A stretch of 63,734 bases of DNA, the filler included, from Kipferlia bialata (lineage: Eukaryota): the NCBI GenBank assembly GCA_003568945.1. It is 9 parts of 7 records of this genome, joined end to end, with 100 filler letters (N's around TTAATTAATTAA, not from the genome) between each part and the next. Parts side by side here need not be neighbours in the genome. Positions count along the whole stretch, not along the records: positions 11,154 to 22,198 come from BDIP01001304.1; 8 more parts are not named here. One strand, 5' to 3'. Under the pieces are notes generated by a model. It was not told where the DNA came from. It did not search any database and saw nothing but the letters and a program-made list of their open reading frames with translations. Below, in pieces: positions 3,160-60,321 of this stretch (within the stretch, counting starts at the first letter, position 1; the number at the start of each line of letters is the position of its first letter). The translations under genes were made by a program, and so were the position numbers.

Positions 3160-6100
3160 AGCAGAGTGTCACAGCTACTGGCCAGGAGTGATGTGACGTA
3201 GGTACCAGTCTGGTCCTGGGGACAGGGCCTGTTGGAGGAAGGGAGCTCTCCACTGGGGTAAGAAGCATATGTACACAATTGAGACATAGAGGGAGAGAGA
3301 GAGAGAGAGAGAGAGAGTCTGTTGGAGGAGGGCAGATCTCCACTGGGGTAAAAAGCATATGTACACAATTGAGACATAGAGGGAGAGAGAGAGAGAGAGT
3401 GAGTGTGTGTCGTACGAGGGGAGCTCTCCGTTGGAGTCAGACAGCATACACTGAAAGAGAATAGAGAATAGTAGAAATGGAAATTGTCATCCTGACTGGA
3501 TGTAACTATTACATGTCAATCTCATGAATTCTAGTGGTCTATACAAGCACATCAAATAATATTTATTATGAATATATTGATATTGATATAGTATATACAT
3601 ATACTCACTTGTCATTCAGGATGATCTCCCTGAGCTGTCTGCCGGACTTGGTCAGCTCCTAGGATGTTAATAAGGGTGTAGAGAGAGAGAGAGAGAGATG
3701 AGAGTACGTGGGAAATGGAGAAATAGAGAGAGAGAGAGAATATTACTATATTGTTGATTATAGACTATCGTATAGGAATGCACAGGATATATAGAATACT
3801 TAGAATATACAATATACTACTATACCTCGACCATGTTGTTGATGATCATCTCTGACAGGCCATTGCCCCTAAGATCGAGGGACTGGACTAAGGGTGAGTG
3901 TCAATACATACACATGTACACATGTATACATACATACATATATACACATATCCATACCATTGGGCATGTGCTTCAGAAGTCTGGCCAGTCTAGACCCAGT
4001 GTGGGACAGGTCATGGCCGGCTGGGGTTAGTAATACATACAATATGTATGTATTGATGTACATAGTACGATCGTATACACCACATAACACATACCGAGGT
4101 CCACTGAGGTGACGTGCTTGAAGCTCTTCCCCTCTGCCTCTCCCGCTCCCTCAGTTGGCTCACACAGAGAGGACACGTACTTGTACATGGACACAAAGCC
4201 AGTTGATCCTGAGTATTAGATAGAAATGAATATACATATATATACATAGAGAGAGAGAGAGAGAGAGAGAGGACACGTACTTGTACATGGAGACAAAGCC
4301 AGTGGAGCCTGATAATTAAATAGATATTATACATTAGACTTACAATTACACATACATAAGTACCTAGCTTGTGGTCTGTGAATGACAGGGTGGACTATAC
4401 ACACACTACTGTATACATCCTTATACATATGTATATACAGGTGCATATAAATGTAAGTACCTAGCTTGTTGTCTGTGCCTGTGAATGACAGTGTGGACTG
4501 GGAGGGGTCAGAGGCACAGGAGTCAACGATAGACTGGGGTGAGTGACCAATTTATATACACATATTCTATTATATATATGTAGAACCTTCCACCATGCCT
4601 CTGTGTGCTGTGCTACCATACCATGCATAAATATTGCATATATAGCATACACCCACTTACATATGCATACACATACCATATGTAACTAATACTATACAGT
4701 ATGTGTAGTACCTTCCACCATGCCTCTGTGTGCTCTGTCTTGGGCAGAGAGGGTACTCTGGACACAGCCATGGACTCCCTGGGTGTTAGAGGGTATGTAT
4801 TCACTAGATAATATATTCATAGATATACCATAATACCCTATTACATACTAGTTATCAACCAACAGAAACAGACACGGACTGACCCTGACTGGCAAAGATA
4901 TCCAACATAGAACACACATACATATTGACCAGCGTACCTCAGAGTGTGGAATATTGGCATTGGTATGTCTGTGACATCTGTAAAACTAACGTATAATAAG
5001 GAGACTCGCGTACATATCTTATGCAAACTCGCGTACCTCAGTGTGCCCAGGCTTGGTACTGGTCTGTCTGTGACATCTGTGGAGAGGGAGGAGAGGGCGG
5101 GGGAGACACCGCCTTATGGTAAGATAAAGGTGGGAGAGGGGGGGAGAGAGAGGGCAGGGGAGACACCGCCTATTGATCAGAGAAAGAAGGGGGTGGGGGG
5201 GCAGAGCAGAAGAGAACAAGAAGTGATACTGCAACACCCATAGTAACTACTGGAAATACTGGGCAATAATAATATTATAAGTAAACAATATTTGCACCTA
5301 TAACATTCCGGTACCCCCCCTCCCTCTGCAGGATGGATGCCCAGGTGGAGATGCGTATAGTGCATAGCATACATATAGATGATAGTACATAATTATATAT
5401 ATATCAATAAATAATATACCTATAACGTTCCGGTACCCCTCCTCCCTCTGTAGGATGGATGCCCAGGTGGAGCTCATCTTGGCAGAGATGTACTGGGGGT
5501 CAATAGAAACATGACTATATTCATATACTAATGGTGGAGCAAAAGAGAACATATGCAAGTTATACAATTATTGTAGTGAATTAACAGGTTGGGCTCATCT
5601 TGGCAGCGATGTACTGGGAGGTCAATAAATACCATTCAATACAATACAGTAGAAGAAGAGATCTCCCTCCCCCCCATCCCCACTTTCTCTATCTATATAC
5701 ACTATACCTTCTCTTGTCAGATCCTCTGTCTCTCTCTCTCTAAATATATTTGTATATCCATATATACACACACACATATATATATATCGATATAATACCT
5801 TCTCTATGACACCCTCTAGAGTGTGTACCAGCCTATCCACGCTGGGTCTGTCACAGGGGGTGCGCTGGAGTGAGTATACATGTAAATTAACGATCTATTA
5901 TACATATACATTATAATATATATGTGTTTTTGCATGAATAAATGATTAGGATACTGGGGGTGCGCTGGAGTGAGTGATTATATATTATGTACTAGTGACT
6001 ATACCTGCACTGCAGTGACTATACCTGCACTGTAGTGACTATACCTGCACTGCAGTGACGTATATGTGTAGGTATATATATACATACATATATACGGTTA

Positions 6101-6726
6101 TTGAAAAAGTATAAAGAGTAGAAATATATCAAATATAGTACGGTAAATGATCACTTGTACAGGACACATAACCACATACTTACCTGCAATATACAGTTGA
6201 TAAGGCGAGTATATATATTGAATATATAGTAGTATATATATAGTATATATCAAGAGTAGTATATATATAGTATATATCAAATATAGACTGAATATATAAC
6301 AGTGTATACTTACCTGCAGCATAGAGTTGATCAGGTCAGGTAGGCCTGGGATGTCGGTATCCTCGCTGGAGACGGTGCTAATGGTGAGATTTGAGAAGAG
6401 AAGAAATTATTAGAATGAGAAGAATGAAAAGAAACTCAGGGTGTCCAGGGAAAGAGTCCTTTCTCTAGTTATGCTATGACTTATCGCAATACAGAATCAT
6501 ATAATTTAACCAACCAACTGCATGACGACCAGTCCCTCGACAGTAATATGTATTCTACTAATCATATACTAATTCTTTTATGCATTCAGTATATATACAT
6601 ATACGTACTTGAACTGGGCGTCCTCGGCCACCAGGCCATGGGTGAAGGAGAAGTGGTTGAAGTATCCCCCTAAGGTTGGTATTCTCTCCATAACTGCTAT
6701 ATATAGACGCGGAAGTAGAAAGAGAA

Positions 6727-6765
<39 letters not shown>

Positions 6766-7085
6766 GTATTTTGTTGATGAGTCTCTCCTAAGTTGAGTAT
6801 TCTCTCCAAAACCATCAAGATAAACAGAGAGAGAGAGAGAGCTTATGATTACCTAGATGAGGTCGGACACGATACATACCCATATTAATATACAATAGGT
6901 ACTAGATATAGTACATATACACATTATTTAGTGAATTATTGTACCTGGTGAGTTGCGTCTGATGAGGTCGGACAGGACCCAGTGCCTGGAGAGCATCTGC
7001 GGTGAAAAAAGGGTGTAGAGGCAGAGAGAAAGAAAAGAGAAAGACCCAGTGTCAGGAGCATCCCAGATGATACAAGGGTGTAGAG

Positions 7086-7123
<38 letters not shown>

Positions 7124-10100
7124 TGTACCTCGCTGAAGATCAAGCCGAGTGACCAGACATCTGCAGACTGGTCATACTCCCCAATCAGTCTGGAGTAAGG
7201 AAACAATTATACAATAATACACATAAGTATGCTGGCCCCTGTACTGTTGGCAATGTATAAACGTTACTCACATGTATACACATATATACATATATAAATA
7301 ATGTATATTGCAATAACACAATAATACACAGTATATCGTATTATAACACAAAAGTAGTATGTAGATAATAATAATATGGAATGAATGGTAAATGGAAAGT
7401 GTACCTTGCCCCTGCACTGTTGTTCCAAGGTCCATAATATATATGAAAATTGAAAGTATATAGAAACACACGCACATATATATATAAATACAATTAGTAA
7501 TACACTATATGTATGTCATACCTAGCCCCTGCACTGTTGGTACCAAGGTCCACTCCGTTCTCAAAGCACTGACGTTAATGGGATAATGTCGTATAACAAA
7601 AGGGTATATACAACAGTGTATTCTATATTAAAGCACCATGTATTCATTTCTACTGTTCAGGTGCTCTGTACTGGATGCTACCTTACATAATGGCAGAGGA
7701 TATAATACATACACTCTTTCATTGTATACTATATTATATATATGAATATACATCCATACCTCTGGTGCCCTGTACATAATGTTGCCCACTCCCAGGGAGT
7801 TGGTCTGCGGGTTCTAATGGTTAGAGAGAGAGAGAGAGAGAGAGANNNNNNNNNNNNNNNNNNNNNNNNNNNNNNNNNNNNNNNNNNNNNNNNNNNNNNN
7901 NNNNNNNNNNNNNNNNNNNNNNNNNNNNNNNNNNNNNNNNNNNNNNNNNNNNNNNNNNNNNNNNNNNNNNNNNNNNNNNNNNNNNNNNNNNNNNNNNNNN
8001 NNNNNNNNNNNNNNNNNNNNNNNNNNNNNNNNNNNNNNNNNNNNNNNNNNNNNNNNNNNNNNNNNNNNNNNNNNNNNNNNNNNNNNNNNNNNNNNNNNNN
8101 NNNNNNNNNNNNNNNNNNNNNNNNNNNNNNNNNNNNNNNNNNNNNNNNNNNNNNNNNNNNNNNNNNNNNNNNNNNNNNNNNNNNNNNNNNNNNNNNNNNN
8201 NNNNNNNNNNNNNNNNNNNNNNNNNNNNNNNNNNNNNNNNNNNNNNNNNNNNNNNNNNNNNNNNNNNNNNNNNNNNNNNNNNNNNNNNNNNNNNNNNNNN
8301 NNNNNNNNNNNNNNNNNNNNNNNNNNNNNNNNNNNNNNNNNNNNNNNNNNNNNNNNNNNNNNNNNNNNNNNNNNNNNNNNNNNNNNNNNNNNNNNNNNNN
8401 NNNNNNNNNNNNNNNNNNNNNNNNNNNNNNNNNNNNNNNNNNNNNNNNNNNNNNNNNNNNNNNNNNNNNNNNNNNNNNNNNNNNNNNNNNNNNNNNNNNN
8501 NNNNNNNNNNNNNNNNNNNNNNNNNNNNNNNNNNNNNNNNNNNNNNNNNNNNNNNNNNNNNNNNNNNNNNNNNNNNNNNNNNNNNNNNNNNNNNNNNNNN
8601 NNNNNNNNNNNNNNNNNNNNNNNNNNNNNNNNNNNNNNNNNNNNNNNNNNNNNNNNNNNNNNNNNNNNNNNNNNNNNNNNNNNNNNNNNNNNNNNNNNNN
8701 NNNNNNNNNNNNNNNNNNNNNNNNNNNNNNNNNNNNNNNNNNNNNNNNNNNNNNNNNNNNNNNNNNNNNNNNNNNNNNNNNNNNNAGAGAGAGGGAGTTG
8801 GTCTGTGCCCAGGGAGTTGGTCTGTGGGTTCTAGGGGTTAAAGAGAGAGAAAGAGAGAGCCTGAGAGAAATGACATACACCTCGCGGTTGCCCAAATACC
8901 CACTATAGTAAAAGTAAAAATATACATTGTATACATAGCATTAAATACCTCCTCGCTCATGAGCTTGCTCATATATACATTATCTCCATATGTATATGTA
9001 AATATGTATTGCATTTAGTATAGTGTAAACATATCATATATATATTGTATATACCTCTTCGCTCATGAGCTTGCTCAGTAATTGATGGATAATTCAGAAT
9101 CTTCAGATGTCTAATGTAACTATAAATATATATAAATGAAAATTAATATTGTTAAGGTGTATATACCTCCTCACTCATGAGCTTGCTCAGTCCAAAGTCC
9201 ACAATCTTGACACACACGTATGAGCCTGACATGTCTATCATGATGTTCTCGGGCTGGGGTGAGACGATATCAAAATAATAATTCAATATAGAATTTACTC
9301 TCTCCCTGTGGATCATATCGGCCTTACCATGGGTATCTATACTCTCACTCTATATATCCATGTAACCATAATCGTACATATACATACACATACCTTGATG
9401 TCCCTGTGGATCACCTTGGCCTTGGCCATGGCAGACAGGGCAAGGAGGAGCTTGGATTAAGGGTGTAGAGGGAGAGAGAGGATCTGAGGGGAAACGGGAT
9501 GGTGTACAGTAATAGTATATGTGTATCAATACCTGGTGCATGATGGTCAGCATGTGAGGAAGAGGGTTCTCCTTGGACCTGGTGTTAAAAGGGTATAGAG
9601 AGAGAGAGAGAGAAAGAGATGTGGATATCGGCATATATATCGGTATGTATGTACTGACGTAGAAGTGAGAGAACAGGCGACACAATTACGAAACGAGAGA
9701 GAGAGAATACTCACCTCATGAGGTGGACCCCTATGTGCTCCTGGAGGTGCTTGCCTGGCGTGAGCAATACACTAATAGTAGTATATATATATATATATAT
9801 TAGTGTTTCAATTGTATAAATATGTCATTACAAATATATACATACCCATGCCACAACGCAAAGACCACTACTCCACCAGATCCATGACGATGACCATCTG
9901 TCAACAAATATACCAAACTTCACATATATACACACAAAGATATCTGAAATAAGGTAGGTATCATTAGTATATTAGTATTACAGTACACAATATTGTATAC
10001 ATATAAATACCTTCCACCAGCTCCATGATGATGACCATCTGGTTGGCCTCCTCTGTGTTGCGGAAGTGACGCAGGTACCTAGGGTGAGTAGAGGCGATAT

Positions 10101-10993
10101 TTAGAGAGAGAGAGAGATGGAGAGAGAGAGGGATGTTCCCGCAGTGACGTAGATAGGGGAAGATCACAGACAAGAAAGCCTCACATTCCTGTAAACCTCA
10201 TTTCACACATATACTTCAGTACATAACTACTAAATACGAGGTGTCAACCCATTCCGCATATACTCATCTACGTACTGCCCCACTGCATGCATGTACTGCA
10301 ATATATCACATGTACTCACTTGACTACGTGGGGTGTCTCTGTGTCCCTGAGGAGAATGGCAGCCCTGACATTAAGGGTGTAGAGGGAGAGAGAGAGAGAG
10401 AGATATTAGGGGAGAAGACAAATAGGGAAAGAAGGGACAGAATGGAACAACCTTGATACTAAGGGCGGGTGTAGAAAGAAAAAGAGAGAGAGAGAGAGAG
10501 AGCCTGGATACAAGCAGTACCTGATCTCTGTCTTCAGGTCCTTCTGCCTCTGGACGTAGGCAGCCCCTGACATCAAGGGTGTAGAGGCAGAGAGGGAGAA
10601 AGAGAGAAAGAGACAGATGACACTCAGTGCCGGAGGAGAGATGAACATCTCTCTCTCTCTCTCTCTACATATATATATATACATACCAGCTGCAGTCTTC
10701 ATAAATGCCTCATAGGCGTCCTCTGAGAGCTCATCCTCAGCCACCTAGGGAGTCAGAAAGACATAAGTGAGATTAAAGGGGTAGATGGAGAGAGAGAGAG
10801 AGAAAGAGAGCTCGTCCGCAGCCACCTAGAGAGTCAGATAGACATATGTGACTCTGTACTGACCAAAGATGCATTGTAGGCATATATAAATCAATATGGC
10901 AAGTATGATCCGTACCCAGTTGGGTACTGCAGGTGTGCCGCATATCCACTGGAACTTGGCAGCCACTCTGCGTCCAGTGGCAATCTCTGTGGC
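3156..10993 (-). CDS. Ser/Thr protein kinase, multi-exon, 5'-partial, spans an N gap
   Basis: Stitched GT-AG exons give RRVAAK (subdomain II, ~10960), MVIIMELVEG, IHRDIK|PEN (9395/9253), KIVDFGLSK (~9195), GNIMYRAPE (~7765), YDQSADVWSLGLIFSE (~7130-7190), DLINSMLQ and DRPS. The last exon ends LASSCDTLL*, TAG at 3156-3158. Confidence 0.9.
5994..6059. repeat. 20-bp tandem repeat (AGTGACTATACCTGCACTGY) x3 in a kinase intron
   Basis: Directly visible. Each unit contains GCAG|GTATAG on the minus strand, like the donor of the exon at ~6313. Confidence 0.85.
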
Positions 10994-11153: not shown

Positions 11154-11173
11154 ATCTATATACATATATATAC

Positions 11174-12642
11174 CTGTCTCAGGTGCTGGGCTGACACGGT
11201 GCAGATCTCCTTCCCTGAGGTCAGAAGGAGAGAGACATAGTGGGGAAATACTGCATATATACTGTATATGGTATAGTAGTATTGATTTGATAGTAGTATA
11301 GATGTATTCCTACCTGGTAACACCGTGTCCCCGTCGTCAGAGAGGACGAATACTATCTACATAGTATACTCTTTAGTATATACTTATATATATAGTGAGG
11401 AATCCCCACTTGGAAACACCGTGTCCCCGTCATCGCATATATACTGTATATGGTATAGTAGTATAGATTTGAAAGTATAGTATAGTAGTATAGTAGTATA
11501 TATGTATTCCTACCTGGTAACACCGTATCCCCGTCGTCGCATATGGCTGGGCTGGGGTTAGATCATGCAGATAGGAGTTTGATGAGTACATACACACTCA
11601 TATCTATATATAGCGGGTGGGTCATATATTACTGGGAAAAGTGCAGAGCCAAAAAAGAGAGACTTATGAATGACCTAGTATCTGTTTCTGCTAGACCATG
11701 TGTCGTTCTATATATATACAAAGGCTCCTTAGAGTAGACCAACCACACTGTTAGGATGATATATATATAGATATATATAAATGATATATATATATACATA
11801 TATTTATACCTTAGATTAGACCACCCACACTGCATGAATAGACATACGGACTCATAAACACTAGTATCTCTCAGAGTATATATATCTCGCCATATATATA
11901 TGTATATATATACACACACACACATATATATATATATACCTTAGATTAGACCACCCACACTGCATGAATGCACATACGGACTCATACACATAGGTATCTC
12001 TCAGAGTATATATATATCTCGCCATATACACACACATATATATGTATACCTCAGATTAGACCACCCACACTGCATGGTGCACACAGGGCAGGCACTCTTC
12101 AGAGTCAGCGAGATACTATCCTGCGGTTTGTATCATAATTTTTAAGTGTCTCTCACAATAATCACATATTGCTATACATCATCATTCGACCCTCTACGGC
12201 GTCCACAACCTCCCCCCCTCTCTGTCTCTACACACACACACACACACACATACATGTACATGGCTAACAAACCTCTTCCTCTCCCCCTTCTGCTGCATAT
12301 AACACCTCCACCTCCACCTCTCTCCATATATTGTTTTATATATACATATATAAATGTATATATATATACATATATGGACATCTAACCTCCTCTTCCCCTC
12401 CCTCAGTAGCGTTGAACACCTCCACCTCTACTTCTACCTCTCTCTCTCTCCATATACATACATACATATACGTATTATGAATATCTACCTCTTCCTCCCC
12501 TCCCTCTGTAGCGTTGAACACTTCGACCCCTCCCTCTCCCTCTCTCTCTCTATATATACATATGACTCACTTACCTCCTCTTCCCCACCCTCTGTGGCAT
12601 TGAACACCTCCACTTCCACCTCCACCTCCTGACTCAGCTTCA

Positions 12643-12680
<38 letters not shown>

Positions 12681-14107
12681 AATATATATTTGTATACATA
12701 CATATATATACATATATCAGTATATATATGTAGTATACCTCCTCTTCCCCTCCCTCTGTAGCATTGAACACCTCCACCTCCACCTCCACCTCTTGACTCA
12801 ACTTCATCAGGGCACCGAGAGCAACGCCTATGGCCCTATTGTTAGAATACAGTACTTATGATATTTATATATAGTACATATAGTATGTGCATTATATTGA
12901 CTCAGCTTCATCTGGGCACCGAGAGCAACGCCTATGGCCCTACCGTAAGGTAATATATGTACATTTCACATATATATATATATAATATGTTAAGCTTCAC
13001 CAGGGATCTGAGAGCAACGCCAATGGCCCTGGTGGTTAGCAAATATATACCTTCATATAATAGTGTATATATCGGATATGTATATATCGGGTTATGCTTC
13101 ATAAGGGGACTGAGAGCAACACCTATATGACTCTCTCTCTCTTCCTCACTCTCCCTATACCTTGGTATGTCGTTGGATGAGGCAGACTGAGCTAGAAACA
13201 GCCAATAGAATACTATCTGTCTCAGAGGTATATATATATATATATATGTGTGTGTTAACAGACATACTTGGGTATGTCGTTGGACGAGTCTGACTGGGCC
13301 AGGAACATGTAATAGAAAACTCTCTCACACATATATATATATATATATGTTAACAGACATACTTGGGTATATCATTAGAGGAGTCTGACTGGGCCAGGAA
13401 CATGCGGATGTCCGACATAGGCATCTCGGGCATCTTGCACTGTGGGAACTGGTTGGTCTTGGGGTTAGAGAATACTCTACACATAACACTAGTATATATA
13501 TAGATGTATATATATATATATATGCGGATGTCGGACAGAGGCAGGGAGGGCATCTTGCATTGGGGGAACTGATTGGTCTGAAGATCAGAAGTCATAATAG
13601 ATATATGTAGAATATATACATATATATGATATATATATATATATATATATACATGTCAGATAGAGGCATCTCGGGCATCTTGAGAATGAGTGTATATATG
13701 TGTGTATAGATTCATAACCAAACATTAACATATACATACAATACCTGCATGAGGAAGAATGGCACTTCCTGCACTCACAGATGTATACAGACATATTAAT
13801 ATATATATATATATATCTATATCTATACATATACAATACCTGCATCAGTGAGCAAGGTACTTCCTGCATGACGGTGTCATTGGCAGTCTTGACCATGACC
13901 CTTGGGTTACATGTCCAGATACATACAGATATACCTATATACCAATATATATGTCAATATTACTATGGGTGTCATTGGCAGTCTTGACCATGACCCTGGG
14001 CTTAGATATACAGATATATATATAATACTTCATGCACTTGGGTATCATTAGATGGAAAGGGACCATACCTCAGCACTCTCTGCGCTTCATCCATATATGT
14101 ATACATG

Positions 14108-14138
<31 letters not shown>

Positions 14139-14534
14139 ATATATAAATATCTATGCAGGTATTGTATCTCCTACCTCAGCACTGTCTGCTGGGTGACAGT
14201 CTCTGTCCCAAGCATGATCTGGGAGTGAGTGCATATAATACCTACACACATATATATTGGAATGTTTATGAGATAGATAGAGAGAGATAGTCCTATTCTA
14301 TACAGATAATGATACGCATTGTATACCTCTGTGACCGTCCCTTTACCAGACTGCAGTGCTGCCAGGAGGGTGTGCACATTCACCTTGACTCCAATGTAGT
14401 TGCCAGTCCTGGACCTAGGGTGAATATATATAATTGTCAATAGTACTATATACAATATTATTGCATAAAAGAATTGTATTCATTAGTGGACCTTGACTCC
14501 AATGTAGTTGCCTGTCCTAGACCTAAAGTGAGTA

Positions 14535-14572
<38 letters not shown>

Positions 14573-14940
14573 TATGCCTAATATATCCAAATATACGTAT
14601 TAACGAATGGACTTTGACTCCAATGGAGTTGCCAGTCCTCGACCCAGAGTGAATAGTATGTATATGTTGACAATCATAGATATATATACATGAATCTCTT
14701 AACCACAAAGTACTATTGCATATATATACTCTACCTGACTTCCATCATTGAATAGTATATATAAGTATAAGGAAACTCGGTATACTGGTGGAAACAAGTT
14801 GTATACAACTACAGTGTTATTTTTCTCCCTTACACCATTGACCAGAATTAATAATCGAATATACGTAAACTATACACAACACTACAAATAATCAATGGTA
14901 CTAGGCCTAGTAGCTGACTTCCATCATTGAGAACAGGTAG
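11174..14940 (-). CDS. HUS1: HUS1-like 9-1-1 checkpoint clamp subunit, internal part, multi-exon
   Basis: Stitched exons: LFSMMEVRSRTGNYIGVKVNVHTLLAALQSG...VMQEVPCSLMQTNQFPQCKMPEMPMSDIRMFL...ALMKLSQEVEVEV...SISLTLKS..TMQCGWSNL...ICTVSAQHLRQ. These are collinear with recalled HUS1 blocks (VTHDIPIKV..LQEPVVPDPDVSIYL; KMKNISNHLVIEA; LNLKIETELVCVTTHFKDL; EVHIDIRKLLQ). Not database-verified. Confidence 0.7.
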
Positions 14941-15326
14941 AATGAATAGTGTCTATATATATAAACACATATGTAGTATTATGTATAGAAATATAGTATT
15001 ATAGTATTANNNNNNNNNNNNNNNNNNNNNNNNNNNNNNNNNNNNNNNNNNNNNNNNNNNNNNNNNNNNNNNNNNNNNNNNNNNNNNNNNNNNNNNNNNN
15101 NNNNNNNNNNNNNNNNNNNNNNNNNNNNNNNNNNNNNNNNNNNNNNNNNNNNNNNNNNNNNNNNNNNNNNNNNNNNNNNNNNNNNNNNNNNNNNNNNNNN
15201 NNNNNNNNNNNNNNNNNNNNNNNNNNNNNNNNNNNNNNNNNNNNNNNNNNNNNNNNNNNNNNNNNNNNNNNNNNNNNNNNNNNNNNNNNNNNNNNNNNNN
15301 NNNNNNNNNNNNNNNNNNNNNNNNNN

Positions 15327-15371
<45 letters not shown>

Positions 15372-15379
<8 letters not shown>

Positions 15380-16389
15380 ACAGGAGAGAACATAGTTCAT
15401 GATCTGGTATTAGGGGTGAATGGAGAGAGAGAGAAGTGACTCATATTACATAATATACATATATATAACTTAATACTCAAATAGAATACATATAGTAATA
15501 TTCAATCATATACAATACATACCATCAACAATGCTAGGAATCTCTTTGGCCACCTTGGTCATCTATAAATACTATATATACCAATGTACTAATTGCATAT
15601 AAATGCAATATATACCAATATACTAATTGCATATAAATATACACATACCCTGCAGAGAAATGTATAAAACATTACTATATAATATTATGACAATACTATA
15701 CTTACCATTAGAAGAGCGAGGAATCTCTTTGGCTTTGATTTGGCCACCTTGGCCATATATACATTAATATTATATGTAAATAGTGAAATGAACACTCATA
15801 TATATATAGTAACTCACCATCAGAAGAGCTAAGAACCTCTTTGGCTTAGACTTTGCCACCTTGGTGAGAACAAGACCCGCAATCTGCTCATCGACCTGGG
15901 GTTAGTCCAATACAATAATAATAATGACTACAATAATGAATTACAAAGACACTGTATCAATATACAATGGCGTCATTAGAATATCAGCAAAGCACCTTGT
16001 ACTTAGCCATGGCGACACTGAGGCTGAACCCAGAATACATATATATATATATATACATAAATGAATACATGTACTAATCACTATTCTAATGATGCCATTG
16101 GATTATGAACCTTGTACTTGGCCATGGCGACACTGAGGCTGAACCCAGTATATAAATATATATATACAAATATACATGTATCACTATTCCAATGATGTCA
16201 TTAGAATAGTAGCAAAGCACCTTGTACTTGGCCATGGCGACACTGAGGCTGAAACCGGCCAGAACCAGAAGGACAGTCCCACTCATCATGCCAGAAATGA
16301 TCTGACAATAAGGGTCAAGAGGGAGAGAGAGAGATAGAGAGAGAGCCACTCATCATGCCAGAAATGATCTGAAAATAAGGGTCTAGAAG

Positions 16390-16428
<39 letters not shown>

Positions 16429-17059
16429 GATTAGTCCCACTCATCATGCCAGAAATGATCTGAAAAAATAAGGGGCTAGAGAGAGCGAGAGAGAGAAAGA
16501 GAAAGAGGGAGAGAGAGAGGTCCTATACCTCGCTTGCTGCGTCACCAGGGGCAAGAACCTCGTCGGTGTCGGAGTCCTGACATTAGGGGGCTAGAGAGAG
16601 AGAGTGAGAGGGAATCCGAGAGCGTATACTGTACGAATATTTACCGGTGAGTAAGTAGGACACATATATATTTATATATATATTACATTGTAATTATTGT
16701 AGAGTAGCGGTTAAAAGTGTACCGTTAGGACGTATGACACGCATACCACAAAGGTGATATATATACATATATATATATATATACATATATATATGTACTT
16801 CTAATGAATAGACAAACAGAAAGTAGTATATCCTAACCTTTAGGACGTATGGGACGCATACTACGAATGGTATCACTAGTGCAGTATATATGCATGAATA
16901 CCATAATACTGATATAAAGTATATACACTGTATATACCTTAAGCACGTAGGATACGCATACCACGAATGGTATGACTAGGGCTGTGACATGGAGGGGCAG
17001 GGCCTCGGCACCCCAGAGGATAGAGGCACCTAGGACAATACCTAGACAGCGCCTATGCT

Positions 17060-17094
<35 letters not shown>

Positions 17095-18443
17095 CCTCGG
17101 CACCCCAGAGGATAGAGGCACCAAGCACTATACCAAGGCAGCGCCTATGATAAAAAAAGAGAAAAAGAAAAACACCAAGTCTTGACAGCGCCTCTCTTTA
17201 CAGTATATACACATACATATATACTACCATATTGACTATAGAGCACCTAGCTGTAGCCTCCATGGCTGTCACAAACACAGAGCAGCTGACACCCACAATG
17301 AGGGCAAGGATTATGAAGATGACGTCCTGAGAATAAGGGGGTAGGGAGAGAGAGAGAGAGAGAGAGATACACCCACAATGAGGGCAAGGATCATGAAGAT
17401 GAAATCCTGATATTAAGGGGCTAGGGGGAGAGAGGGAGAGAGAGAGAGAGAGAGTAAATACCTTCAGTGTGACCGAGAAGACCTTGTGCTCCTTCTCTCT
17501 CTGCTCCTCCTTGTCGGAAGAGAGATCCAGCTGGGCCTTGGCCTGCAATAAGGGTCTAGGAGGAGAGAATAAAGGGTGTAGAGGGAGAGAGAGAGGTTCC
17601 TAACCTGGTGAGCCCCCCAGTCCACGAGGTATGGGTTCTTCTTCCAAGAGAGAGAGGACTCTACAGCAGACAGAAGACCTGAAATAAGGGTGTAGAGGGA
17701 GAGAGAGAGAGAGGACTCTACAGCAGACAGAATGCCTGGAATAAGGGTGTAGAGGGGGGGAGAGAGAGAGGGAGTGGGAGCAGAAGAAGTGTATATTGGA
17801 CTAGCGTTGTACACAGGATATACCCACCTGCCCTCTGCTCCTCCCCCTGCTCTCCCATCCTGGTGCAGTATATATACTATATACATAGTATATCTACACA
17901 TATTACATATATATTACGTATATATATATATACATGTATATACCTGCCCTCTGCTCCTCCCCCTGCTCTCCCATCCTGGTGCAGTATGCGCTGAAGGCAT
18001 CGCCTGGTATTAGTATCAGAATATATATACATTATTATATAATACCATAATATATATGTATATATATACATTATTATATAATACATTAATATCCCCCATC
18101 CTTGTGCAGTATGCACTGAAGGCATCGCCTGGGGTCAGATAATATAATAATTATAGTTACATTTCACAATAATAAATATGAATTACAATAATTGTATAAT
18201 AGTAATGATACTGGTGCAGTATACGCTGAAGGCGTCGCCTAGTGTCAGTGGCAGTATGCAGTATACATACATATGAATCAGACTGAATATTGTAGCTACT
18301 GTCCTTGTCAGCTACAAAATTGTAACCATAATCATGTAACTGATACCTAGCTCGGTGGTCAGCTCCTCGATAGTACTTGTATTTTTAGTATATATGTACT
18401 AATCACTAGTCTATTGCAAAGTATATTCAATTATATATATATC

Positions 18444-18475
<32 letters not shown>

Positions 18476-20049
18476 TATCATTATACCTAGCTCGGTGGTC
18501 AGCTCCTCAAGGCGGGAGGTGTCAGAGAAGGGCTGGTCGCGCATCTGGTATTAAGGGGCTAGAGAGAGAGAGAGAGAGAGAGAGAGAAGGGCTGGTCACG
18601 CATCTGGGATTAAGGGGCTAGGGAGAGAGAGACAGAGAGAGAGTAGGTACCTCCATGTGCAGGTTGCTGTCCAGCAGGTGACTGTGCCTGTACAATATAA
18701 CACTACTCCATATACAATATGAATACATGTATGTGTACAATACATATATATATATATATACGTGTATATAGATATATATGTCTATATACCTCCATGTGCA
18801 GGTTGCTGTCCAGCAGGTGGCTCTGCCTGTACAATATATAATACTACTCCATATACAATATGCATACTCATGTATCTATGTGTACAATATACATATATAT
18901 ATATATGTGTGTGTGTGTGTATATACATATGTATATATATACTATACTGCATTATTACCTCCATGTGCAGGTTGCTGTCCAGCAGGTGGCTGTGCAAAGA
19001 TATATATATATATGTATATATATGATAATACTCACAAATATACATAATAGTTAGGGGGCTAGAGAGAGAGAAAGAGAGAGTATAATACCTCCATGTGCAG
19101 GTTGCTGTCCAGGAGGTGACTGTGCCTGTACAATTTATAACACTACTCCATATACTATATGAATACATGTATGTGTACAATACATATATATATGTGTGTA
19201 TATACATATATATGTATATATGTACCTCCATGTGCAGGTTGCTGTCCAGCAGGTGGCTGTGCCAGTACAATATACAATACTACTCCATATACTATATGAA
19301 TACCCATGTATGTGGACAATATATAAACAATAAACATACATATATACTAAATATACATGTATATACCTCCATGTGCAGGTTGCTGTCCAGCAGGTGACTG
19401 TGCAGGTACCATATATATGTGTATATGATAATACTCACAAGTATACATAATAGTTAGGGGGCTAGAGAGAGAGAAAGAGAGAGTATATATACCTCCATGT
19501 GCAGGTTGCTGTCCAGCAGGTGACTGTGCATGCGACGGTCGGCCTTCTTGCAGATCTTGCTAAAGGTGAGAATAGAATAGATATAGAGATACGCATATAT
19601 GCAAATAGTTCGGCCTTCTTGCAGAGCTTGCTGAGTGTTAACACACATATATATACATAAATATCTATATGTCTATATGTACATACCGCAGGGCAGTGAG
19701 GTTGAGCTCTGCGTGGTCGATGAGCTCAAAGAGGTGGACCATCTCATCAAACATCCTGGGGGTAAATAAGGGTGTAGAGAAAGAGAGAGAGAGAGAGAGA
19801 GAAGATGAGGCACTCTCTTAAACACTGATAGTGTAGCAATATATATATTCACATACCTCTTCTTGAGTACTGACTCGTATGCATAATACACACATATATA
19901 TATACTATAGATAATACATATGATATATAGGGTGTATATATGTGTATATACCTCTTCTTAAGGACAGACTCGTATGCCTCTGTGTCCACATTGTCACCAG
20001 AGGATAGACGGGTGATGAGAGAGGCCACACGCTCCTCTGGATATAAGGG

Positions 20050-20083
<34 letters not shown>

Positions 20084-20834
20084 CTGCCAGCCTCAGGTGC
20101 TCGTGGTGGAACAGGTTGCAGGCATCAACCTCAGACTGGAGCAGAGTAACAAACCTTTCATAAGAAGGCCAGGTATGTATGTATAATATATAATACACAC
20201 AAATAATATATTATATGTGCAGACCATATAAACAACACATATATAAATACATATACATATCATAATGTATTGCATCATAATGTATTGCATCATATATATA
20301 TATATAGTATATACCTGGCGATGTTTGCGGCACTCCTCTCCTGCGCCAATCTCTTCTTCCTGGCCTAGAAGTGAATAAGGGGTGTAGAAGGAGAGAGTAA
20401 AAGGGTGTAGAAGGAGAAAGAAGTAAGTGATAGTGTTGGCCTAGAAGCGAATAGAGGGTGATGAAGAAGAGAAGCAATCAAACACTGTTTACTAATACAT
20501 ATGAAGTGATTAGTACTAGAATATACGATAGGGTTATTACTCGATTAAAATAGCTATCCATATACATAAATATACCTGCAGGTGCATGTGTGCATTGGAC
20601 AGAGCACGGGGTCTGCCTCTGGACCTAGTGGTAAAAGGGTGTAGAGGGAGAGAGATATAGAAATATAACACTGTATATGCGGTAAACGGGTGAAGAAGAG
20701 TAATAGGGGTGAAGAGGAGACATGGATATAGTGAACATGGAAACATACACATTCATATATTTACAATAGAATAAATACACATAAGTATACTACAAAGCGT
20801 TTACCATACCTGTCTGAGACCTCACTGGCCTCAC

Positions 20835-20876
<42 letters not shown>

Positions 20877-22063
20877 CCTCTCTGACACCTCACTGGCCTC
20901 ACGGTCCACACCGGGCACTGGGGTGAGATGAGTATATATAATGAATATTGATATATATACATGGAGATAGAGAGATAGGGAGAGAGAGAGAGAGGGAGAG
21001 ACCTCACGGTCCACACGAGGCTCTGGGGTAAGAGAATACCAATTTATATATCGAGAGAGAAGAACAGAAAACAAAGTAGTCATCATTCAATGTCATATGG
21101 ATAGTAGGGATATGGATATCGTCCAACTAGTGCTTACATACCCTCCAGTGTGTCTGTCACGACCACAGGGTCAGGAAGGGCAGACTCCTCTGGATATAAG
21201 GGTCTAGAGAGAGAGAGAGAGAGAGAGAGATGTCAGGGAGGGGACACTCCTATTGATATAAGGGTCTAGAGAGAGAGAGGGGGGGGGGCATTGAGGGAAG
21301 CGATAGGGATGGATATATGAGGAGAGGGGGATGTGAAGAAATGGGACCGGTACACAATTCATTCACATATATATATTTACCTGTGACAGCCCCCATATAC
21401 ATATAAATATATGTATATACATACTTATACTTGAATGTATATATAACTATCAATATGTATATACCACCTATACCTGTGACAGCCCTCTCAGCTATGGTTG
21501 CCAGCTCAGACAGGGGGATGTGGGGTGTATCAGCCTCAGACACCTCAGGAGAGGCAAGGGTGGACTCTGAGAATAAGGGTGTAGAGGGAGAGAGAGAGAG
21601 AGAGAGATGTGGGGGGTATCAGCCTCAGAGACCTCGGGAGAGGCAAGAGTAGACTCTGAGAATAAGGAGGATAGAGAGTGAGAGAGAGAGAGAGAGACAG
21701 AGATTGAAGCCAAATAGTGTGTAGAGGGTGGGAGGAGAGAAAGAAAGATAGGGAGGGAGACACCTAGGGGGCGACACGGGTACGACTCTAAGATGATACA
21801 GTTGTGGGGGGGGGGGTAGGAAGTGAAAGGGAGACCTTGGGAGAATACAAAGTACGCATCAGTATGATATTATATATATGTGCATATGTATACATATGTT
21901 TACCTAGTCCTCCATTGCACACATCCTCCTGGGTGATACAACACTCATATACTCATATGTATATATATATACCTACACTACAATATATATAGAGTATATA
22001 CACATACATACCTAGTCCTCCGTTGCACACATCCTGCTGGGTGATACCGGCCTTGATGATGTC
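15372..22063 (-). CDS. SPX-domain SLC13/DASS phosphate transporter (Pho87/Pho90/Pho91-like), partial at both ends
   Basis: SPX motifs RFVTLLQSEVDACNLF and AELNLTALRKICKKADR (lysine cluster). TM blocks RCLGIVLGASILWGAEALPLHVTALVIPFVV, MMSGTVLLVLAGFSLSVAMAKYKV and RFLALLMIMNYVLSCVIS match Pho87-family LLWATEAIPLFVTSLLIP / LLLGGFTIAAALSKY. Confidence 0.88.
18649..19560 (-). repeat. Interspaced array of ~38-bp exon-3'-end copies (7 units including the true exon)
   Basis: ACCTCCATGTGCAGGTTGCTGTCCAGCAGGTGRCT at 18649, 18788, 18957, 19087, 19224, 19365 and 19491. Only the last extends into the full exon KICKKADRRMHSHLLDSNLHME. Confidence 0.92.
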
Positions 22064-22086
22064 CTGGTATTAAGGGTGTAGACAGA

Positions 22087-22118
<32 letters not shown>

Positions 22119-22149
22119 TTCCACATATGTACCCATACACACAGATTGA

Positions 22150-22185
<36 letters not shown>

Positions 22186-22745
22186 AAAAAAATAAGGGNN
22201 NNNNNNNNNNNNNNNNNNNNNNNNNNNNNNNNNNNNNNNNNNTTAATTAATTAANNNNNNNNNNNNNNNNNNNNNNNNNNNNNNNNNNNNNNNNNNNNCG
22301 TCGTAGGACACTGCCAGTACCCTCCCAGGCCCTATCCCAATAGTCCAGCAAATACGTGGATACACATCATCAACACGACTGACTGGGTGGCACTTGTATA
22401 GCTGAGGCAACATAGGGGGCTTTGTGCGTAAGTTTGAAGAGGTATGTGTGTTGGTGGCCTCTCAGACCCTGAGGGTTACTGGTTAGCCAAGGGTCAGGCG
22501 TGCTGTCTAGTGGTTCAAACTGAGGGTTTCACAATGTTTTCAGATTGATGACTGTAGATTGCCCTCATATGATTACTATAGATGTCGCATTGTATGTTAA
22601 GGGAGTGACCTGCTGACACAGTGGACTGTCAAGAACCGGATATCATAGAGGCAGGGGCAATGATAGCATTTCTCTCTATTGAATACAAGATATCGATTCA
22701 GTAGTTCAGGAACTACATGTATCGTCTATTGAACAAGGAATCCAT

Positions 22746-51400: not shown

Positions 51401-54400
51401 CAGGGGCAGGCCTCTTGGCACCACCTCAGTGGAGGGGGTCTGCTGGGGTGAGAGCGATACTGATACAATAGACACAGATACATATACGTGTGGCCCGCCT
51501 CCACACTTGGCAACGTATCCATGCCCCCACCTTGCATACACTGCGGTGCACCCTGGCTGTGCTGGTGGTCTTGCCATACACAATGGCCTCCCCCTCACTG
51601 GCCTCCCCCCTCTCTCTTTGGATCAGGGCCTTGGGGGAGTGGGGAGGGAGGGCGGGCATGTGCTCCTGGTACCGCAGGATGGCCTAGGGTGAGAGAGGAC
51701 AGACACACCATAATATCCATCATCACCAGGGTGATGCCACTGGTGGCAATGAATACCCTACCAGCTGCACATAGAGAGTCCCGACCCACCTTCGACAGCT
51801 CCAGCTGCCCCTGCTGTGCCTCCTGCAGCTGCTGTCGGAGACTGGCCTCCACAGACGCAGTCTCCCTCTGGCGCTCCTTCTCTCTCTCCCTCTCATCCAC
51901 TAGGCCATCAATCTTGGCCTGCTATTAACATAGGATTAACAAAGAGAGAGAGAGCAACGACACTCCGAAGTCAAGTACATACAAATACTCTCAATGAGTC
52001 ATAAGTTGCCACACACGTCGAGTCCAGATACCTCGAGTCTGGCGAGTGTCTCTGCGATGCTCTGCCTCTGTGCGTAGTCTGAGTCCTCGATCTGACCCAC
52101 CGCAGCCAGCATTGCAGCATGCCTCTCGTGCTGCCTGTCCTGCTCGGAGGTCTGGTACACAACCATGTCGGTATCACCGTCAACCCTGACATGAGCTAGA
52201 GGGAAGGAGCATGCATATCACTCACCCATGCATCCTATAGACATTGGTACAGTCAGATATGATAAAGATGGACACACTTGAGGGGGGTACAGGATAGGCA
52301 GCGACTTCAGCATGCATGAACACATCCACACATACCCTGCGAGGAGCTTGTCTGTCTGGGCTATGACGTTGGACACCTGGGCGGACTCTGCCCTCTCTCT
52401 CTCGAGTACCTGCTGGACCAGAGACACGGGGTCAGCACCCACAGACACATCATGGCACCCACCCCTCCCAGAGAGAGAGGGGGCGGGGACAACAGGCACC
52501 ACTGCCTGGGGGGCAGCACCAGCATCAGCATCAGTACCACCAGCCCCAGGTGCTGACCCTGGGCTGGGGGGCATGTGCACATGGGACAGGTGGTGCATGG
52601 GGGTGGAGGGGGAGACTGGCGCACCGCTCCACTGACCAAGGGGGGCCGTCCTCTCACTGGGGGGTGCTCCATCCTTGTCCAGAAGACTGTCGCCCTCTCC
52701 CTCTCCCTCTCCCTCGGACGAGGACTCCGTGTACACCTGCGACATCCGCAGAGACCCCCCCTGGATGCCCCCACTGCTCTCTCTCTCTCTCCCTGTCTCT
52801 GTCTCTGCGGTCTGGGGCAGTCTCATGGCCTCGGGAATGGCATCGCCTGCCCTGATCCCCAGGCCCCTGGGTAGGGAGGGAGGGGTGGGTATGACGGGGA
52901 CACCGGACAGACTGACTGGGTCTGGCAGAGATCCACTAGTAACAGACCCACTGACAACAGAGGCCATAGGCACCACACCCTGCACACCCTGCACACCCTG
53001 CACAGCCGGGAGAGCCGGGACAGCAGACACCACCCCGCCCTGGGCCATACCTGGGAGACCCATACCCATCCCGAGGCCTAGGACAGGGGAGCCCTCACTG
53101 ACGAGGAGGGCGGGGTCAAGGGCACGGCTCTCACTGGCCAGCGCAGCCAGTCTCTCTGCCTCCATGTACTGCATCCCCTCTGCCGCCTCTCTCTCTGCTA
53201 TCCTCTGTGCCTCCTCCCTCCTCTCCCTCTCCATCTGGGCCAAGGCCTCTAGCTCTCTCAGCCTCTCTCTCTCTCGCTCCTCCTCCTCTGCCAGTATTCT
53301 CTCTCTCTCCCTCTCCCTCTCTCTCTCCTCCTCCTCTGCCAGTGACCCTGACACACCAGACCCACCCACACCGGTCAGACCCTCAGTCGTCGTGCCCTCC
53401 GGCACCACCAGCCACTCCTCCTGACACGTCAGTATCACTATCAGTATCAGCGTCAGTATCAGCGTCAGTGACGTCAGCAGTATAGCCACTCCCAATAACA
53501 AAGGGATCCTACACAAACACAAAGTATGATTGTCCAAAGCACCACCTGTACCACCACCCCCGTACCTTCCCCACTCTAATGCGGTCACCTACCCCTAGAG
53601 GCAACGGGCACCCGTGCTTACACCTGGCCCCATTGAGAAAGGTACCCTTCTTGCCTAGGGGTTAGGGATTGCAGTGCCATAATTGGTATGAGAGAGCGTG
53701 GGAGGGTGGGGGGAGGGTGGAGTCTTCCAGTTGTACACACGGCACAACATGGGGTAGATATGTGTGTATGTATTGGGGAGGAACCCTCCACACCCATGCA
53801 GCCACACTGTATGTCTGGCAAGATACCTACAAGGTCCTCTAACACCAGGCTCTGCAGCGGTTCATCCCAAGACACCTTGCAGTGCGTCCTAGGGTTGGAT
53901 AACAGATACTGATACTGCTACTGGGTTGGATAACAGAAGGAGGGGGGATGAGAAGTGTCACTTCAATGCGGAGGACTGAGTCAATACCATGGCTAACACT
54001 GGCTCAATATCGAAGACAGAGGACACTACCTGGACACAGTGGTCTCATCCACAAAGATGTCCACAGTCTCCCGCCCCTTCCCTGGCCGCTGTGTTTTGCG
54101 GTCCCTCTTCCCACGGCCAAACACACACTGGGGTGAGTATCAGAATTGGTACCGGTACCGGTACTAACATTGAAGTGAAGACAGAGCCAGGCCCCATATC
54201 CCAGATACCTTGTTGGGAAAGTGCCTAATCTCCGCCAGCCGCAGGGTGCCTTCCACATCTGTGGACTCGGGAGAGTCTATGCGGGCCAGGTGGATGTGCA
54301 TGACACCTACACCCCCAGAGTCAGACATCTATCTATGTCAGTGGGAGTGGCTGCCACAAGGATTCCTAGCGCCCTATGACTCTCTGAGGTGAGTAGAGGT

Positions 54401-54542
54401 GAACTAATGGTAGATACACAACTTGATGTCCAGTATAGACGGGAACTGGGTATGAGGGGAAAGGTCAACACGAAACTACATGACATACTCCTTGTCTAAT
54501 CCTGAGCTCAATGAATGCCTACTCAACACAAGAAACTCCCAT
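48407..54542 (-). CDS. Large multi-exon protein with N-terminal FHA domain and long low-complexity/coiled-coil middle; 3' end uncertain
   Basis: Exons CVFGRGKR...VDIFVDETTVSR|THCKVSWD...LVLEDL carry the FHA G-R and SxxH signature. A large exon (~52336-53420) has an E/R coil. Further in-phase exons run to ~48410. It could be more than one gene. Confidence 0.55.
49253..50373. repeat. 13-bp tandem repeat (GGGTGAGGATGRA)n on both sides of the gap, within one intron
   Basis: Units are visible at 49255-49305 and 50306-50373, flanking the N gap. Confidence 0.85.
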
Positions 54543-54891
54543 TATCTCAGGTATCTCACCTTCACTTAATCAGTCTATAGAGGTGCCTGTATGAATTCCA
54601 CAAGAGTGCATCAGCACTGCACAAGCAAAACCCTTAGTCTAAGGCGTTAGAAGATTTTTGAGCAATGTATTCAGAAATTGGGCCAATTTTCAAATTGCTA
54701 CTTGGCTACTTTGCCTAGTAAGTTCGAGTATTATGCACTAAAGTGCATTTCTGTTAAAAATGCAAATGTATTTGAAAATTGGATAACTGTCTCTTACCTT
54801 CTTACCAGGGTTGGGCCAGTTACCAAACCAGAGCTAGGTCAGGCCAACACACGGAGAGGATCCTCGCTTGCTAAGACCTGCTGAGCTTTCG

Positions 54892-59881: not shown

Positions 59882-60321
59882 CTTGGTGTGTTGGAAGCTG
59901 TTGTGTGAAGAGGTAGCTCAATCTCTGTTCATGTGATTACCTGAATCCTAAACCCTTTTGGCAAAAAGTGCTACACGATTTCTATCACTTTGGTGGTCAG
60001 AGGCCTTAATATCATGCATGTATATCATGTATATAGGGCCTCGTATGCGCTACTATCTCCAGGGAGGAAGTACCTGGACATGTTGCGACTCGTATACTGC
60101 CTCCAAGACCCGATATCTCTGGGTGTGTTCTTTGTTTGTACATATACCCATTCACTCTATGTGGTCTATTGTGTGTATACCCCCTCACTCAATGAGGAAT
60201 ACACAGAGTTTCTCCCGTCTCTCTCTACATGAGGTCTAAGAGGTCCATCGCCCTCACTCTATCATGTCCACCCCCCTCTGCTGTGGGCCATGACATGAAG
60301 TGTACAGCATATGCTCTCTCC

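What the first reader, a model, noticed from the sequence alone, without database searches (positions are those of the whole stretch)
15521..15865. Same peptide, three codon spellings, in one transporter intron
True exon end: AAG GTG GCA AAG TCT AAG CCA AAG AGG TTC TTA GCT CTT CTG ATG|GTGAGT (15818-15862). Echo 15706-15750: AAG GTG GCC AAA TCA AAG CCA AAG AGA TTC CTC GCT CTT CTA ATG|GTAAGT, 7 nucleotide changes, all silent, including TTA>CTC. Echo 15523-15560: AGA TTC CTA GCA TTG TTG ATG|GTATGT, again silent, with an internal deletion at the GCCAAA microhomology. Each copy has a different valid donor. This is the clearest single example of the system.
Basis: seen in the sequence. Interest (0 to 1): 0.85.

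Follow-up and report, generated by a model that had tools for sequence, protein, structure and literature searches.

The report
Introns keep other alleles' exon ends
In the free-living protist Kipferlia, many introns hold skipped, slowly decaying copies of the neighbouring exon's end that differ from the real exon mostly at silent codon positions, likely because they were picked up by recombination from very different alleles, which would make one genome a record of sex and high diversity in a group where sex has not been seen directly.

Summary
Observation confirmed: the exon end at 15818-15862 (minus strand) recurs twice in the next intron, each copy with its own GT donor; 7 of 7 changes in copy 2 are silent; copy 3 has a frameshifting 11-nt deletion. 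One DNA contig at normal depth carries all three, so this is no assembly artefact; the spliced contig uses only the first spelling. The organism is Kipferlia bialata, the gene an SPX-SLC13-type transporter. The pattern is widespread: 122 echoes at 57 of 102 modelled exons, on donor and acceptor sides. Fourfold sites differ at 0.211, non-degenerate sites at 0.033; self-copying plus neutral decay gives a ratio of 0.45 or more. Changes private to one echo are also silent-biased, yet echoes carry frameshifts and stops. Structurally these are 'mirages' (exon-intron boundary repeats of amphioxus and human F7); this scan noted similar repeats in animal genomes before. New here: their density in a protist and the silent bias on the echoes' own branches. 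Best reading (inferred, 0.55): boundary duplications refreshed by unequal exchange with diverged alleles. New variant of a known kind.

The parts
15818..15895 (-). True 78-nt exon (VDEQIAGLVLTKVAKSKPKRFLALLM) of an SPX + SLC13-type (Na_sulph_symp/CitMHS) transporter; first donor GTGAGT follows
   Evidence: Spliced contig of run X2 covers 15818-15893 with 0 other letters and joins to 16219; peptide lies in public protein P0121
15753..15817 (-). Spacer 1: used donor plus AT-rich intron start
   Evidence: sequence
15700..15752 (-). Echo 1: last 47 nt of the exon, 7 silent changes in the last 45 nt, then unused donor GTAAGT
   Evidence: on DNA contig 1
15561..15699 (-). Spacer 2, AT-rich; the 20 nt before the echo are 60% alike to those before echo 1 (background 48%)
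15517..15560 (-). Echo 2: same start point as echo 1, 11-nt frameshifting deletion between GCCAAA repeats, last 8 codons silent-only, unused donor GTATGT
15380..15516 (-). Rest of the intron with a branch point next to an AG at 15404; the exon start that follows runs into a CT repeat and the N gap and is probably itself an acceptor-side echo (inferred)
   Evidence: sequence; P0121 uses its first 8 codons
15996..16146 (-). Two donor-side echoes of the preceding exon (16111-16146, 15996-16031), skipped in the spliced contig
   Evidence: joint 15893/16219 skips 325 nt with GT-AG ends on the minus strand
16346..16459 (-). Two acceptor-side echoes (branch point, AG, exon start; 16433-16459 and 16346-16368) upstream of the used acceptor at 16301
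   Evidence: contig pieces 16529-16575 and 16219-16301 are adjacent in the spliced contig
15818..22063 (-). The 19 modelled exons of the transporter gene; most introns carry echoes, six in the intron at 18545-19492
   Evidence: open reading frame without stops, identical to the first part of P0121; echoes

Best explanation
The intron holds two unspliced, decaying tandem copies of the exon end with its donor, and their silent-only differences likely come from exon ends that were still working in other, strongly diverged alleles when recombination copied them in. Step 1 (structure shown, mechanism inferred): a short tandem duplication spanning one splice site, about 35 nt of exon plus about 70 nt of intron, seeds a unit; microhomology-mediated end joining by polymerase theta is the likely route in a cell without Ku. 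Step 2 (shown for the junctions covered by the spliced contigs): splicing takes the first donor and the last acceptor, so the unit is harmless; duplications holding both ends of an exon or intron would change the mRNA, which would cap unit size (inferred). Step 3 (inferred): during exchange between homologues, whose introns barely align, an allele's working exon end mis-pairs with the echo or takes first place, so units keep one shared far boundary but get a new silent spelling and a new intron flank. Step 4 (shown as a pattern): once out of first place a unit decays at about 0.03 changes per site and picks up frameshifts. This needs silent diversity of roughly 0.1-0.3 among recombining alleles or hybridising lineages and turnover 60-200 times the per-site mutation rate (toy model).
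For: Fourfold sites differ at 132 of 626 (0.211), non-degenerate sites at 80 of 2445 (0.033); ratio 0.155, bootstrap over 78 exon sides 0.106-0.224; unchanged without CpG sites, 123/587 against 77/2363. The same pipeline on simulated neutral copies returns 0.92, and 0.45-0.52 if the exon's silent sites also drift. Changes private to one echo: 48/333 against 27/1371; after dropping the most silent-diverged echo of each of 26 series, still 13/192 against 12/774, Fisher P 3e-4. In the finding all three copies have private silent changes. Ten clonal simulations with duplication, pop-out and conversion gave ratios 0.65-0.81; allele-fed models gave 0.28-0.60 at slow turnover and 0.15-0.33 at fast turnover. 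Decay: GT in register in 62 of 69 donor-side and AG in 43 of 46 acceptor-side echoes, 2 stops, 14 frameshifting indels of which 2 look like alignment over-run. Echoes of one series share their far end within 3 nt in 16 of 26 series (null mean 9.0, P 0.0012) and their junction flanks are alike (0.61 against 0.48, 43 pairs). K. bialata has Spo11, Msh4, Hap2 and PolQ and no Ku70 (PMC8516963 Supplementary Data 2 rows).
Against: No second allele or strain was seen: the DNA run lists no other letters, so allelic diversity is not measured and the needed value is at the top of what I recall for eukaryotes (about 0.15-0.2, recalled). The exon has fewer private silent changes (8/132) than echoes do (48/333), which exchangeable alleles do not predict without extra copying from the exon itself. 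No single toy model matched all observed figures at once. Intron flanks are almost unalignable even beside echoes identical to the exon (mean 0.54 against 0.48 background for 69 donor echoes), more than silent divergence of 0.2 would give unless AT-rich sequence turns over much faster. Divergence does not rise with distance from the exon (ranks 1-3).
Confidence: 0.55

Rival explanations
1. The echoes are under selection now as spare parts: frequent deletion between exon and echo (pop-out), or rare use in RNA, puts the echo into the coding sequence, so amino-acid changes in it are purged while silent sites drift.
For: Non-degenerate differences are rarer in the half of an echo next to the splice site (15/716) than in the far half (39/675; P 4e-4) while fourfold sites show no such trend, as expected if pop-outs use the near part most; it would also explain why the exon has fewer private silent changes than the echoes.
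Against: Per echo the gradient is weak (17 far-biased, 11 near-biased, 42 ties) and allele overwriting gives the same gradient. 12-14 frameshifts, 2 stops and lost splice sites in 122 echoes. Letting pop-outs be filtered only when they happen did not lower the ratio below 0.65; second-order selection would need population size times pop-out rate well above 1, that is still higher diversity (inference). The spliced contigs match the exon's spelling.
Confidence: 0.2
2. The donors were paralogues or homeologues (old genome or gene duplication) since lost, whose exon ends were captured by ectopic repair.
For: Also gives silent-biased, star-like differences and unalignable intron flanks.
Against: No second contig covers the copies at 85% likeness: the bins 15680-15754 and 15830-15904 have exactly contig 1's depth (a filter leaves some records out). 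Silent divergence is spread from 0 upward and overdispersed (chi-square 179 on 121 df; 26 of 122 echoes identical after trimming), not one peak. Echoes always lie beside their own exon.
Confidence: 0.12
3. Ordinary mirage minisatellites on one clonal lineage: self-duplication, neutral decay and conversion from the gene's own exon, with the silent bias due to mutation bias or to the exon's own silent evolution.
For: Tandem geometry, shared far ends and some multi-unit duplication (intron 18545-19492) fit simple array turnover; this is the published account for amphioxus mirages (PMC3087553).
Against: Predicts a ratio of 0.45 or more against 0.155 observed; the bias holds for each base and without CpG and on branches private to younger echoes.
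Confidence: 0.08
4. Assembly artefact: alleles or strains of a mixed culture laid end to end.
For: Draft assembly of short scaffolds with a gap 190 nt away that appears to join two genes; silent-only differences are what alleles show.
Against: An independently built contig of the reads spans all three copies with 0 differences at full depth and no bubbles; no repeated 30-mer could mislead it.
Confidence: 0.02

Closest known systems
'Mirage' minisatellites of amphioxus (Adh3, globins BflGb6 and BflGb9, PGBD5); PMC3087553 and PMC3902484, passages read; the original Adh3 paper not seen
   Same: [quoted passage not shown]
   Different: Reported for a handful of loci in an animal; here 56 of 95 modelled introns in a protist. 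Here the intron part of a unit barely aligns while the exon part is kept at codon level; neither main text contains the word 'synonymous' (0 hits). Their supplementary alignments were not opened and may show such a bias.
Human F7 intron 7 37-bp VNTR with 5' pseudo-sites; PMC1557585, abstract and outline read
   Same: First repeat spans the exon-intron boundary; downstream donors are functional in sequence but silent; the most upstream donor is used.
   Different: Short, near-identical units at one locus, donor side only; no codon-level signal in the abstract.
Inter-allelic exchange at human GC-rich minisatellites; PMC2674676, passages read; polarity of gains (Jeffreys et al. 1994) recalled, title seen in a reference list
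   Same: Works like it: repeat units moved between alleles of one locus, the step inferred here.
   Different: There shown by sperm typing in non-coding arrays; here inferred from codon bias, and the first unit is coding.
Internal gene duplication and intron gain by tandem duplication (Rogers 1989; Gao and Lynch 2009); not held, seen only as cited in PMC3087553
   Same: Short duplications inside genes that include splice signals.
   Different: No new intron is made here; existing introns grow by about 105 nt per unit.

Membership tests
Mirage / exon-intron boundary minisatellite | Tandem units that span an exon-intron boundary, first (or last) unit part of the real exon | tested here: met
   115 of 122 echoes are anchored at the exon's end or start (69 donor, 46 acceptor)
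Mirage / exon-intron boundary minisatellite | Most units keep GT or AG | tested here: met
   GT 62 of 69, AG 43 of 46 in register
Mirage / exon-intron boundary minisatellite | Regular splicing unaffected (outermost sites used) | tested here: met
   Spliced contigs skip the echoes at the joints listed; contigs drop rare forms
Mirage / exon-intron boundary minisatellite | Whole unit, intron part included, alike at 80% or more (concerted evolution) | tested here: not met
   30-nt intron flanks average 0.54 (donor) and 0.60 (acceptor) against 0.48 background; only a few pairs reach 0.8-0.9
Mirage / exon-intron boundary minisatellite | Copy number varies between alleles or cells | not testable with these tools
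   One sample only, no other letters
Mutually exclusive duplicated exons (Dscam type; features recalled) | Each copy is a whole exon with its own acceptor and donor | tested here: not met
   Echoes cover a median 47% of the exon, at most 87%, and carry one splice site
Mutually exclusive duplicated exons (Dscam type; features recalled) | Copies keep the frame and are found in mRNA | tested here: not met
   Frameshift in copy 3; 2 stops and 12-14 frameshifts in 122; spliced contigs match the exon's spelling
Intron gain by tandem duplication of an AGGT site | Duplicated AG|GT used as new donor and acceptor | tested here: not met
   The exon has AG|GT at the echo start, but no branch point precedes the echoes and the spliced contig reads through it to 15818
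Inter-allelic minisatellite exchange | Units traced to another allele | not testable with these tools
   No second strain held; supported only by codon bias and toy models

The most novel reading that the evidence does not exclude
Kipferlia keeps a genome-wide set of spare exon ends: intronic cassettes that DNA pop-out or repair swaps into the coding sequence often enough for selection to hold their amino-acid sequence while their codons drift, in a cell that has lost Ku and Rad51A and repairs breaks by recombination and polymerase theta.
Probability: 0.15. Interest if true: 0.9.

Novelty: new variant of a known kind. Interest (0 to 1): 0.62.

Why it matters
[quoted passage not shown] It would name a driver of intron growth (median 162 nt with no detected echo, 233, 313 and 490 nt with one, two and three) in a 51-Mb genome twice the size of Carpediemonas membranifera's. 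It shows a reduced spliceosome (87 of 174 proteins, PMC6679479) skipping intact branch-point-plus-AG decoys, a natural test of exon definition. Practically, echoes mislead gene finders: the public model P0121 takes one for an exon. It also gives a testable account of the silent bias that this scan's earlier notes saw in annelid boundary repeats.

Tried and rejected
No whole genome was held, so statistics rest on this window. No RNA holder listed on record; X2 is RNA by guess, though its contigs have GT-AG joints. No X2 contig lay on the two echoes (depth 0 in 15455-15754): contigs drop rare forms, so this is no proof of silence. An X2 piece placed on the echo at 12897-12938 has 2 other letters, the number by which that echo differs from the true exon, which lay in a stretch the tool skipped as repeat: rejected as echo use. 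No DNA joint from exon to echo was listed (list cut). A degenerate pattern for the exon end found 0 matches in metagenome contigs, and no protein closer than 68% other than K. bialata's own appeared among the 120 listed V-ATPase hits: no second strain. Single exons gave no Pfam match (0 of 7); the whole protein did. Alternative splicing through the exon's AG|GT: no branch point before the echoes. Order of decoys (all donor echoes before all acceptor echoes in 14 of 14 introns) follows from tandem geometry, so I do not count it as proof of exon definition. Unit length did not correlate with exon length. A serial 'frozen snapshot' or error-prone-copy chain was rejected because younger echoes have their own silent changes and only 2 fourfold differences are shared among echoes against 48 singletons. 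Microsatellites at the far junction are enriched only for CT repeats on the acceptor side (15 of 46 against 8% background). Literature: searches (Kipferlia with intron; with duplicat and exon; with sex and recombination) listed no paper on these repeats in Kipferlia; the genome paper has 0 hits for 'duplicat'; the library lacks most subscription journals.

Full report
Setting. The window is nine scaffolds joined by N-linkers; the finding lies in the one at 11154-22198, on the minus strand. A V-ATPase proteolipid exon at 47457-47927 is 100% identical to P0001, named Kipferlia bialata; the next listed hits are 68% or less. An exon of the finding's gene matches P0121 of K. bialata at 100%, whose first part equals my 19-exon model and carries SPX (156-203), Na_sulph_symp (304-441, above the curated cut-off) and CitMHS matches: an SPX-SLC13 transporter of the Pho87/Pho91 kind (family name recalled). 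'Transporter intron' is right.

Observation. Confirmed as written: 7 of 45 nt differ between the exon end and copy 2, in 6 codons, all silent; donors GTGAGT, GTAAGT, GTATGT. Copy 3 has an 11-nt deletion between two GCCAAA repeats that exist only in copy 2's spelling, so it is frameshifted, but its last 8 codons differ silently. All three have private silent changes, for instance TTA/CTC/CTA, CTT/CTT/TTG, CTG/CTA/TTG. Seven random changes are all silent with frequency at most 6e-5.

Is it real DNA? Contig 1 of run X1 spans 15380-16028 with no difference and no gap at depth 422, like its neighbours (380-447), and no other letters are listed. The copies share at most 15 nt exactly and no 30-mer there is repeated in the window, so the path is forced. 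X1 may be the source data, so this removes the assembler, not the need for a second sample. Contig 9 of run X2 (RNA by guess, but joined at GT-AG ends) covers 15818-15893 with no other letter, stops at the first donor, and skips the donor and acceptor echoes of the neighbouring introns; a second X2 contig does the same at 11173-14416.

How general? I modelled 102 exons of six genes chosen by eye for long introns, all without internal stops, and aligned each exon to its two flanking introns. At a score reached by 1 of 612 control pairs, and leaving out low-complexity hits, there are 122 echoes at 57 of 102 exons and in 56 of 95 introns: 69 exon ends, 46 exon starts, 7 internal. The other genes of the window were not modelled; a model-free scan finds 1.2-5.0 near repeats per kb in four scaffolds and 0-0.5 in the other five, so the pattern is patchy. 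Echoes are about 35 nt; donor-to-donor spacing has median 114 nt (quartiles 100-128), acceptor-to-acceptor 100 (89-112); none covers a whole exon. Echoes of a series share their far end (16 of 26 series within 3 nt, null 9.0) and junction flank (0.61 against 0.48), so one seed duplication is reused.

The codon signal. Differences fall at codon positions 1, 2, 3 as 61, 31, 205. Fourfold sites differ at 132/626, non-degenerate at 80/2445: ratio 0.155, bootstrap 0.106-0.224; one echo per exon side gives 0.17; removing CpG changes nothing. The pipeline returns 0.92 on neutral copies and 0.45-0.52 when the exon's silent sites drift too. The bias sits on the echoes' own branches: singletons 48/333 against 27/1371, and 13/192 against 12/774 after dropping the most silent-diverged echo of each series (P 3e-4). 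It is uneven: the kinase gene's 15 echoes give 0.60. Yet echoes decay: 2 stops among 88 changed residues, 14 frameshifting indels (2 doubtful), GT out of register or lost in 7 of 69 (one of these is a last exon) and AG lost in 3 of 46, about 0.03 per site like the non-degenerate rate. So each echo was under protein-level selection for most of the time since it split from the present exon and has been free of it for a short time.

Mechanism. On one lineage only the first unit can code, so parallel purifying selection needs parallel working copies. Ten clonal toy models, including rotation of units through first place by pop-out, gave ratios of 0.65-0.81. Models where an allele's working exon end overwrites an echo, crosses over unequally, or takes first place gave 0.28-0.60 at slow turnover and 0.15-0.33 at 30-200 events per site-mutation time with silent diversity 0.1-0.3; overwriting also reproduces the lower non-degenerate divergence near the splice site (15/716 against 39/675), but no one model matched every figure. 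K. bialata has Spo11, Msh4, Hap2 and polymerase theta and lacks Ku70 (PMC8516963, supplementary table rows); fornicates lack Rad51A and keep two Dmc1 (passages). I therefore favour end-joining duplications across one splice site, tolerated because the outermost sites are used, then refreshed from diverged homologues (0.55). Against it: no second allele is in hand, the exon has fewer private silent changes (8/132) than exchangeable alleles predict, and flanks are less alike than 20% divergence suggests. The main rival is present-day selection on echoes as pop-out spares (0.2); lost paralogues 0.12; plain self-copying 0.08; artefact 0.02.

Known relatives. It is built like amphioxus mirages (PMC3087553, PMC3902484; passages read) and the human F7 intron 7 repeat (PMC1557585, abstract): boundary-spanning units, intact but unused splice sites. 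It fails one mirage feature, whole-unit similarity, and it is not a set of mutually exclusive exons or an intron gain. It would work like inter-allelic exchange at minisatellites (PMC2674676, passages), which I could not test. Earlier notes of this scan report boundary repeats in annelid and sea urchin genes, two with silent bias; I did not check them, and they pointed me to the lancelet papers. In the K. bialata genome paper (PMC5874029: passages and one methods section) and the searches I found no description of these repeats in this species or of a codon bias in mirages; unopened supplements of the amphioxus papers and papers outside the library may bear on that.

Verdict. Real, non-random, part of a dense pattern; a new variant of a known kind. 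The structure is known; its scale in a protist and the silent bias on the copies' own branches are not in what I could read, and they make diversity and recombination in a free-living metamonad testable. Interest 0.62.

Noticed in passing
window 15010-15326 (N gap) and 11154-15009: The exons left of the gap belong to a Hus1-like gene (Pfam Hus1) with its own spliced contig at depth 38, while the transporter's contig (depth 1103) has 1053 nt left that do not lay there: the gap likely joins two genes, and public protein P0121 is a fused model.
   Followed up: partly
window 14735-14790 (-): The public model P0121 appears to use an intronic echo as an exon (YTEFPYTYIYYSMMEVR); the spliced contig has other letters upstream of the shared part.
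   Followed up: partly
window 30120-30260 and 60256-60283 (-): Echoes also follow last exons, copying the final codons and the stop, in one case with TAG read as TGA; so the copies track ends of coding stretches, not only splice sites.
   Followed up: no
window 12272-12642 (-): Four donor-side echoes of one Hus1 exon: three with 5 of 5 changed codons silent, the farthest with several residue changes (F/L, N/Y, T/A) like a more distant relative.
   Followed up: partly
window 42783-54900: Genes with short GC-rich introns and long exons (V-ATPase c subunit and others) have no echoes; echo-rich genes have AT-rich microsatellite introns and exons of 38-165 nt. Two intron regimes in one genome.
   Followed up: partly
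window-wide: Unit length is narrow (acceptor side 57-130 nt, donor side mostly 80-190 nt) with almost no short units; lower bound unexplained.
   Followed up: partly
window 18545-19492 (-): Six donor echoes whose spacers repeat in a multi-unit pattern (first and fourth spacers about 90% alike), showing block duplication of units.
   Followed up: no
window 3170-10993 (-): Protein kinase gene with a leucine-rich-repeat-like tail (labels from motifs recalled, no call); its 15 echoes show little silent bias (0.60).
   Followed up: no
spacers, e.g. window 17880-17943: Spacers are rich in short perfect palindromes of AT repeats around a CATG or CGTA core, as fold-back synthesis might leave; not tested against a null.
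   Followed up: no
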